Below, in pieces: positions 7,428 to 7,480 of a stretch of DNA of 14,062 bases. Origin of the DNA: Escherichia coli (GTDB taxonomy: Bacteria; Pseudomonadota; Gammaproteobacteria; Enterobacterales; Enterobacteriaceae); assembly GCF_003334385.1 (NCBI RefSeq), contig NZ_QOWN01000066.1; one strand, written 5' to 3'. Position 1 is the stretch's first letter, and each line of letters begins with the position of its first letter. The notes below the pieces were generated by a model. The model worked only from the letters and a program-made list of their open reading frames with translations. It had not been told where the DNA came from and did no database searches. The translations under genes and the position numbers were made by a program.

Positions 7428-7480
7428 GGGGAATGTCTGAGTGCGCGTGCGCGGTCCGACATTCCCACATCCTGTCCCGT
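7428..7480 (+). other. Origin of transfer (oriT) core: inverted repeat plus nick-region motif
   Basis: Perfect 9-bp inverted repeat GGGAATGTC (7429-7437) / GACATTCCC (7458-7466) around a GC-rich spacer, followed at 7469-7474 by ATCCTG, the nick motif of MOBP (RP4-type) relaxases. Predicted nick is after G7474 on the + strand. Lies in the non-coding gap upstream of nikA. Confidence 0.65.

What the first reader, a model, noticed from the sequence alone, without database searches (positions are those of the whole stretch)
7428..7480. oriT core whose nick motif sets the direction of transfer
A perfect 9-bp inverted repeat is followed by ATCCTG on the + strand, matching the MOBP nick-region consensus. 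If the nick is after G7474, the + strand is the transferred strand and the region to the right enters the recipient first. This fits the fact that nearly all genes to the right are on the - strand, so the incoming single strand is their template.
Basis: partly seen in the sequence, partly recalled or inferred. Interest (0 to 1): 0.5.

Follow-up and report, generated by a model that had tools for sequence, protein, structure and literature searches.

The report
Known I-complex plasmid transfer origin

Summary
A perfect 9-bp inverted repeat (7429-7437 / 7458-7466) is the outer part of an imperfect 18-nt repeat. CATCCTGT follows 8 nt downstream of it. The site lies in the 232-bp gap between nikA (7051-7383, -) and yggA (7616-7951, +), next to the MOBP relaxase gene nikB (4328-7039, -).

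The whole gap is 100% identical to plasmid pO26-CRL125, whose oriT was already annotated by comparison with R64. The nick region and everything to its right are 94-100% identical to R64. The repeat, nikA and nikB are only 55-70% identical.

Across 15 natural variants the repeat keeps pairing through compensatory changes, and the nick region is almost invariant. Non-Watson-Crick positions are G·T on the + strand 51 times and A·C once. All 15 variants, and three leading-region hairpin elements, fold better on the + strand.

This independently marks + as the transferred strand. The right side, carrying an anti-restriction gene and Frpo-like elements, is therefore the leading region.

Verdict: a real feature, correctly interpreted and already known. 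The nick position itself rests on homology and was not mapped here. Minor extras: three NikA/repeat classes, a similarity break at the nick, and tiny plasmids carrying only this 80-bp unit.

The parts
7400..7479 (+). Whole oriT unit, made of the 8-bp repeat block, the 18-nt repeat and the nick region. This is the stretch shared with small plasmids that have no nikAB.
   Evidence: In 1.5-6.6 kb plasmids, similarity starts at GGGTGTCGGGG and stops after CCCG.
7404..7422 (+). 8-bp inverted repeat, GTCGGGGC-AAA-GCCCTGAC, with a conserved G·T at 7407/7419.
   Evidence: Near-identical to R64, with one loop difference. 99% of cells pair across the variants compared, and the pair at alignment columns 13/25 is G·T in all 14 sequences that have it. 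The block matches only once in the window.
7429..7446 (+). Left (distal) arm of the 18-nt inverted repeat.
   Evidence: It shows compensatory changes with the right arm across variants.
7449..7466 (+). Right arm, equivalent to R64 'repeat A' and the inferred NikA binding site. It ends 8 nt before the nick.
   Evidence: Alignment to R64. The inner triplet CCG / TAT / ATT tracks three NikA beta-strand classes.
7467..7479 (+). Nick region ACATCCTG|TCCCG, with the predicted nick between G7474 and T7475.
   Evidence: 100% identical to R64 and nearly invariant in 15 variants. It matches the MOBP consensus (C/T)ATCCTG(C/T) (PMC3772185). Mutating the homologous ACATCTTGT in pCTX-M3 abolishes oriT function (PMC7440800).
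7491..7496 (-). TATAAT hexamer on the - strand, a possible -10 of the nikAB promoter. Transcripts from it would run through the nick region.
   Evidence: Read by eye. The consensus scan did not call it, because there is no good -35. This part is an inference only.
7051..7383 (-). nikA, a ribbon-helix-helix relaxosome accessory protein of 110 aa.
   Evidence: NF041264 MobA, 107 bits against a cut-off of 80. 60% identical to R64 NikA, 24/55 in the N-terminal half and 40/55 in the C-terminal half. Matches PDB 2BA3, NikA residues 1-51.
4328..7039 (-). nikB, a MOBP relaxase of 903 aa.
   Evidence: NF041893 TraI/MobA(P) relaxase, 404 bits against a cut-off of 250. 72% identical to R64 NikB. Tyr22 and H158-T-D-T-D-N-L-H-V-H are visible in the alignment.
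7616..7951 (+). yggA, the first gene on the leading side and on the + strand.
   Evidence: 97% identical to the R64 protein. Its pCTX-M3 homologue Orf35 represses nikAB/tra (PMC6112013).
8925..9270 (+). Frpo/ssi-like repeat 1, to the right of (upstream of) the DUF4942 gene on the - strand.
   Evidence: It matches two other places in the R64 leading region and is about 90% like repeat 2. It folds at -99.9 kcal/mol on + against -83.7 on -.
11795..12135 (+). Frpo/ssi-like repeat 2.
   Evidence: It folds at -115.2 kcal/mol on + against -99.5 on -.
13590..13950 (+). Long hairpin element upstream of the anti-restriction gene on the - strand (ORF 13161-13697).
   Evidence: -93.1 kcal/mol, z = -4.9, against -88.4 on the - strand. 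The gene matches phrog_10132, anti-restriction protein. pESBL has a comparable hairpin 5' of klcA (PMC12672017).

Best explanation
This is the functional origin of transfer of an I-complex (IncK/Z/B-type) conjugative plasmid, built like the R64 oriT. NikA, a ribbon-helix-helix protein, binds the right arm of the 18-nt repeat (7449-7466). This positions the MOBP relaxase NikB on the adjacent conserved nick region. NikB cuts the + strand between G7474 and T7475 and stays attached to the 5' end at T7475. The + strand is then transferred 5' to 3', so 7475 rightward enters first and the repeats, nikA and nikB enter last.

When the repeats arrive at the end of a round as single-stranded DNA, they fold into hairpins that help NikB recognise the site and rejoin the strand. 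The incoming + strand is the template for the - strand leading genes, which are served by hairpin (Frpo-like) single-strand promoters.

Shown here:
- homology to the R64 oriT
- the gene neighbourhood
- covariation of the repeat arms
- the strand asymmetry of non-Watson-Crick pairs and of folding energy
- the gene content and orientation on the right side

Inferred from R64, RP4 and general MOBP knowledge:
- the exact nick position
- NikA binding to the right arm
- the role of the hairpin in termination
For: 1. Homology. The alignment to the R64 oriT shows the nick region and the 135 bp to its right at 98.5-100% identity, and the 8-bp repeat conserved. The whole intergenic region is 100% identical to pO26-CRL125, whose oriT was identified against R64 and which was used in conjugation tests (PMC3817090). 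211 plasmid records carry this site at 99% identity or more.

2. Neighbours. NikA and NikB homologues lie immediately on the repeat side and are transcribed away from the site.

3. Covariation in 15 variants. 96% of cells pair, against 34-45% when partners are slid. Eight pairs show changes on both sides.

4. Strand asymmetry. There are 51 G·T cells at 13 pair positions, against 1 A·C cell. All 15 variants fold 3.4-6.4 kcal/mol better on the + strand, and so do the three leading-region hairpins.

5. Natural 'cloned fragments'. Plasmids of 1.5-6.6 kb without nikAB carry just the 7400-7479 unit, and one has this exact repeat.

6. Chemistry and direction. MOBP relaxases need ATCCTG and attach to the 5' cleaved end (PMC3772185). 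Mutating the homologous nick region kills the pCTX-M3 oriT (PMC7440800). Leading-region genes in IncI1 plasmids are expressed early from single-strand promoters (PMC12672017, PMC11541004).
Against: - The nick was not mapped here, and has never been mapped for this repeat variant as far as the searchable literature shows. The primary R64 papers could not be opened, so the '8 nt from the repeat, after the G of ATCCTG' position in R64 rests on my recall plus the RP4/MOBP consensus.
- ATCCTG alone is common in the window.
- The 15 variants are related by descent, so cell counts overstate the number of independent events.
- Two genes on the leading side (yggA and an HTH gene) are on the + strand.
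- No sigma-70 promoter for nikAB was called by the scan.
Confidence: 0.9

Rival explanations
1. The repeat works only as a duplex protein-binding site or operator for NikA, perhaps also regulating nikAB transcription. On this view, hairpin formation in single-stranded DNA is irrelevant.
For: The right-arm inner triplet tracks NikA beta-strand classes, as expected for a protein-recognition site. The site lies between a possible -10 hexamer and nikA, so binding there could autoregulate the operon.
Against: - The left arm changes in step with the right arm.
- Plasmids with the same NikA (window and L007, 99% identical) differ in the outer 5 bp of both arms yet stay complementary.
- Non-Watson-Crick positions are almost all G·T on the + strand. 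This matters only if that strand folds on itself.
Confidence: 0.07
2. The site is an oriT, but the nick lies on the other strand or at another position. The nikAB side would then be the leading side.
For: There is no direct nick mapping for this variant, and the repeat itself is symmetric.
Against: - No YATCCTGY lies on the - strand near the repeat.
- The invariant block sits only on the 3' side of the repeat on the + strand.
- Folding asymmetry favours the + strand.
- Anti-restriction and Frpo-like elements lie to the right.
- In R64 and ColIb-P9 the leading region is the ardA/psiB/ssb side, away from nikAB (PMC12672017, PMC3817090).
Confidence: 0.02
3. This is a chance juxtaposition of a short palindrome and a common hexamer, or a decayed oriT remnant with no function.
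For: ATCCTG occurs 22 times, and 9-bp perfect repeats occur at 9 places in the window.
Against: - It is 100% identical to the site in the conjugative plasmid pO26-CRL125.
- It is present in more than 3000 plasmid records, most of them typed conjugative or mobilizable.
- The repeat shows covariation.
- Intact nikA and nikB lie next to it.
Confidence: 0.01

Closest known systems
oriT of pO26-CRL125 / pO111-CRL115 / IncB p3521 (I-complex, IncK2/Z typing)
   Same: The whole nikA-yggA intergenic region is 100% identical to pO26-CRL125, and NikA differs at one residue from WP_001291058.1. The authors had already noted that the 8-bp repeats equal those of R64 while the 17-bp repeats differ, in line with the different NikA (PMC3817090).
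   Different: Nothing at the oriT itself. The leading region of the window is arranged differently from the best-matching plasmids.
oriT of IncI1 plasmids R64 / ColIb-P9 (NikA/NikB, MOBP, MPF_I)
   Same: - Same architecture: an 8-bp repeat, a 17/18-nt repeat, 8 nt, then CATCCTG|T.
- Same neighbours: nikA and nikB on one side, yggA and the leading region on the other.
- The nick region and the right flank are 98-100% identical.
   Different: - The large repeat is only 60% identical, with compensatory substitutions at about five pairs and arms one position shorter.
- NikA is 44% identical in its N-terminal half, and NikB 72% overall.
- Cross-recognition by R64 NikA is therefore doubtful, and it is untested.
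oriT of IncP plasmid RP4 (TraJ/TraI)
   Same: The logic is the same. An inverted repeat lies 5' of the nick, with its nick-proximal arm bound by an accessory protein. The core is ATCCTG, the relaxase attaches to the 5' end, and the relaxase operon enters last (PMC3772185, plus established knowledge of RP4).
   Different: Judged by eye against the RP4 oligonucleotide in PMC3772185, DNA similarity does not extend beyond the roughly 12-nt nick region. The accessory protein is unrelated (TraJ), and the mating-pair system is different.
oriT of IncM plasmid pCTX-M3
   Same: It has NikA/NikB homologues and a YggA homologue (Orf35). Its nick region ACATCTTGT is essential for function (PMC7440800, PMC6112013).
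   Different: The nick hexamer differs by one base, the proteins are only about 30% identical to those of R64, and its oriT-nikAB lies upstream of the tra genes.

Membership tests
R64-type (I-complex, MOBP) oriT | Nick region matching (C/T)ATCCTG(C/T), and homologous to the R64 nick region. | tested here: met
   CATCCTGT at 7468-7475. The 19 nt CACATCCTGTCCCGTTTTT are identical to R64.
R64-type (I-complex, MOBP) oriT | A large inverted repeat immediately 5' of the nick on the nicked strand, with its proximal arm ending 8 nt from the nick. | tested here: met
   Arms 7429-7446 and 7449-7466. The 8 nt 7467-7474 separate the arm from the nick. The columns are the same as in R64.
R64-type (I-complex, MOBP) oriT | A second 8-bp inverted repeat further 5'. 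| tested here: met
   7404-7411 and 7415-7422, with arms identical to R64.
R64-type (I-complex, MOBP) oriT | Adjacent nikA (RHH accessory protein) and nikB (MOBP relaxase), transcribed away from the site on the repeat side. | tested here: met
R64-type (I-complex, MOBP) oriT | Strand- and site-specific nick made by NikB with NikA. | not testable with these tools
   This needs primer extension or in vitro cleavage. The position is inferred by homology only.
R64-type (I-complex, MOBP) oriT | The fragment supports mobilisation in cis. | not testable with these tools
   The evidence is indirect. An identical site sits in the conjugative plasmid pO26-CRL125 (PMC3817090). The 80-bp unit is carried by small plasmids lacking nikAB that MOB-suite types as mobilizable.
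R64-type (I-complex, MOBP) oriT | Leading region (anti-restriction genes, single-strand promoters) on the 3' side of the nick. | tested here: met
IncP (RP4) oriT | TraJ/TraI relaxosome proteins, and sequence homology of the repeat. | tested here: not met
   The neighbours are NikA/NikB. NikA scores 19.5 bits against the TraJ model PRK13877.1, far below its cut-off of 134. This site works like the RP4 oriT but is not a member of that family.

The most novel reading that the evidence does not exclude
The I-complex oriT family may split into at least three private NikA/repeat-A specificity classes. These would be set by two beta-strand residues (TA, AV or TL at NikA positions 20-21) reading an inner triplet (CCG, TAT or ATT). 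Tiny oriT-only plasmids would then be tuned to one class of helper. In addition, the G·T-versus-A·C asymmetry of the repeats could serve as a sequence-only way to call the transferred strand, and the nick could be the junction at which transfer modules and leading regions are reshuffled.
Probability: 0.4. Interest if true: 0.3.

Novelty: already known. Interest (0 to 1): 0.12.

Why it matters
It matters little as a discovery, because this exact site is in the literature and in more than 200 sequenced plasmids. It is useful for annotation. It fixes the polarity of transfer for this window, so it identifies which genes are leading (early, anti-defence) and which enter last. The side results offer cheap, testable handles on helper specificity among IncI1, IncK, IncB/O and IncZ resistance plasmids and the small plasmids that ride on them. 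These side results are the NikA/repeat classes, the strand-asymmetric wobble pairs and the similarity break at the nick.

Tried and rejected
- I tried to open the primary R64 papers (PMC179678, PMC161590, PMC208999). None is held, so the exact R64 nick position is cited from memory and from secondary sources.
- An Rfam scan of the whole window found nothing.
- The consensus promoter scan did not call a nikAB promoter. The TATAAT at 7496-7491 is therefore only a suggestion.
- A literature search for 'R64' plus 'ATCCTG' returned noise.
- I considered a second oriT-like site at 11058-11108: an 8-bp repeat, 18 nt, then TCATCCTGT. I rejected it because it lies in a coding region, has the wrong spacing and has 3 mismatches to the nick region.
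- I assumed the ORF at 13161-13697 was ArdA. It is not. It is a different anti-restriction family.
- I did not use the metagenome, genome or representative-protein searches, or structure prediction. The plasmid collection answered the question.

Full report
**What is in the sequence.** The + strand at 7428-7480 reads GGGGAATGTCTGAGTGCGCGTGCGCGGTCCGACATTCCCACATCCTGTCCCGT. GGGAATGTC (7429-7437) and GACATTCCC (7458-7466) form a perfect 9-bp inverted repeat. It extends inward to 18-nt arms, 7429-7446 and 7449-7466, with 15 of 18 positions complementary. CATCCTGT lies at 7468-7475, so the proposed nick after G7474 is 8 nt from the end of the right arm.

A second repeat, GTCGGGGC-AAA-GCCCTGAC, lies at 7404-7422. 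As single-stranded DNA, 7400-7480 folds into these two hairpins at -25.3 kcal/mol, z = -4.3.

Taken singly, the motifs are weak evidence. ATCCTG occurs 22 times in the window, against about 7 expected. Perfect repeats of at least 9 bp occur at 9 places. Only this site combines both. The 14-nt nick region and the 23-nt 8-bp-repeat block each have a single exact match.

**Context.** The site lies in a 232-bp gap.
- To the left, on the - strand, is a 110-aa ribbon-helix-helix protein at 7051-7383. It matches NF041264 above its cut-off, is 60% identical to R64 NikA, and matches the solved NikA 1-51 domain, PDB 2BA3.
- Further left, also on the - strand, is a 903-aa relaxase at 4328-7039. It matches NF041893 (TraI/MobA(P) family) at 404 bits and is 72% identical to R64 NikB. 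Tyr22 and the HxDxDxxHxH motif are visible.
- Further left again is trbC.
- To the right is yggA (7616-7951, +), 97% identical to the R64 protein. Its pCTX-M3 homologue represses nikAB/tra (PMC6112013).
- Beyond yggA, mostly on the - strand, come a DUF4942/methyltransferase-like gene, an Rpn nuclease, several small genes and an anti-restriction gene.

The best-matching plasmids are typed IncK2/Z or IncI-gamma/K1, MOBP, MPF_I.

**Comparison with the characterised origin.** I fetched R64 and aligned its nikA-yggA gap to the window. The nick region and the sequence to its right are essentially identical: 7467-7480 at 100%, 7481-7615 at 98.5%, yggA at 97.6% and the DUF4942 gene at 96.5%. The large repeat (60%), nikA (55-70%) and nikB (69%) are diverged. 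The arms of the 8-bp repeat are the same as in R64.

The whole 7384-7615 gap is 100% identical to pO26-CRL125. The authors of that plasmid identified the oriT by comparison with R64. They remarked that the 8-bp repeats match R64 while the 17-bp repeats differ, as expected from a different NikA (PMC3817090). So this exact site is already described. 211 plasmid records carry it at 99% identity or more.

**Is the repeat functional?** I collected 15 natural variants: this window, R64, seven large plasmids and six plasmids of 1.5-6.6 kb that lack nikAB.
- The blocks GGGTGTCGGGGC..AGCCCTGACC, the loop GCGTG, CGGT, and CACATCCTG(T/C)CC(C/T)G are invariant or nearly so.
- The rest of the large repeat varies.
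- On the proposed pairing, 96% of cells are paired, against 34-45% when partners are slid by 1-3 columns. Eight pairs show changes on both sides.

The window and L007 encode the same NikA (99% identical). They differ in the outer five base pairs of both arms and remain complementary. This argues that pairing itself is selected, not only a protein-binding sequence.

**Which strand?** The nick motif is on the + strand only. Two independent signals agree with this.
- Positions in the two repeats that are not Watson-Crick are G·T on the + strand in 51 cells, at 13 different pair positions. They are A·C in one cell. On the - strand those positions would be A·C mismatches.
- With DNA energy parameters, all 15 variants fold 3.4-6.4 kcal/mol better on the + strand.

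The same holds for three long hairpin elements to the right:
- 8925-9270 folds at -99.9 kcal/mol on + against -83.7 on -.
- 11795-12135 folds at -115.2 against -99.5.
- 13590-13950 folds at -93.1 against -88.4.

The first two are direct repeats that also match several places in the R64 leading region. They correspond to the Frpo-containing repeats described for these plasmids (PMC3817090). The third lies upstream of the anti-restriction gene, like a hairpin promoter found 5' of klcA in the IncI1 plasmid pESBL (PMC12672017). Each sits to the right of - strand genes.

MOBP relaxases attach to the 5' end at the cut (PMC3772185), and transfer runs 5' to 3'. So the + strand from 7475 rightward enters first and is the template for those genes. 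This matches what is reported for leading regions in general (PMC11541004) and for IncI1 plasmids experimentally (PMC12672017).

**Mechanism.**
- Shown here: homology, neighbours, covariation, strand asymmetry, and the content and orientation of the leading side.
- Inferred from R64, RP4 and MOBP knowledge: NikA binds the right arm, NikB cuts after G7474, and the hairpins act when the end of the strand arrives, for termination and rejoining.

Mutating the homologous nick region in pCTX-M3 destroys its oriT (PMC7440800).

**Side observations.**
- The NikA beta-strand region falls into three classes that track the inner triplet of the right arm. IVKFTARF goes with CGGT-CCG-ACA. (I/V)L(R/I)AVRF goes with CGGT-TAT-AC. 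V(V/I)(R/K)TLRF goes with CGGT-ATT-ACA. This is the pattern expected if beta-strand residues read that triplet. It rests on nine related proteins and is untested.
- The jump in similarity to R64 falls between 7466 and 7467, next to the nick. This fits either exchange of modules at the nick or co-evolution of NikA with its site. The data do not separate the two.
- Small plasmids carry only the 7400-7479 unit, which gives natural boundaries for the functional origin. One 1538-bp plasmid has exactly this window's repeat.

**Verdict.** It is already known. Interest is low.

Noticed in passing
window 7466/7467, comparing 4328-7466 with 7467-8888: Identity to R64 jumps from 55-70% (nikB, nikA, large repeat) to 94-100% (nick region, yggA, DUF4942 gene), right next to the predicted nick. 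This could mark module exchange at the nick, or co-evolution of NikA with its site.
   Followed up: partly
window 8925-9270, 11795-12135 and 13590-13950: Three long hairpin elements, the first two being Frpo/ssi-like direct repeats about 90% alike. Each lies to the right of - strand genes, and all fold more stably on the + strand.
   Followed up: partly
window about 11750-12650, compared with R64 (L005 about 5560-12650): The window goes from the gene left of Frpo-like repeat 2 straight to the small-ORF / DUF1380-like / anti-restriction block. It lacks the ardA-psiA-psiB-parB-like-ssb block that R64 has between two Frpo copies. This resembles the deletion described for pO111-CRL115 (PMC3817090).
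   Followed up: partly
window 11316-12341 (-): The 341-aa ORF runs through Frpo-like repeat 2. Only residues 198-322 match a protein family, so the real gene is probably much shorter, about 11376-11750.
   Followed up: partly
window 3829-4260 (-): A 143-aa protein with a TolA C-terminal-like domain (phrog_5772; annotated in related plasmids as 'cell envelope integrity TolA C-terminal domain-containing protein') sits between trbC and nikB. R64 has no gene there.
   Followed up: no
L014 (NZ_CP135463.1, 1538 bp), L015-L019: Plasmids of 1.5-6.6 kb without nikAB carry only the roughly 80-bp oriT unit. L014 has this window's repeat exactly, while the others carry the other repeat classes.
   Followed up: partly
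window 7051-7383, loci L005 and L007-L013: NikA residues about 14-24 fall into three classes that match three versions of the inner triplet of the right repeat arm: CCG, TAT and ATT.
   Followed up: partly
window 11058-11108 (+): An 8-bp perfect repeat, CTGGCGAT/ATCGCCAG, is followed 18 nt later by TCATCCTGT, inside a - strand coding region. It has 3 mismatches to the nick region and is judged to be chance.
   Followed up: yes
whole window: ATCCTG occurs 22 times (12 on +, 10 on -), against about 7 expected from base composition. This is probably a codon-pair effect, and it means the hexamer alone cannot flag an oriT here.
   Followed up: no
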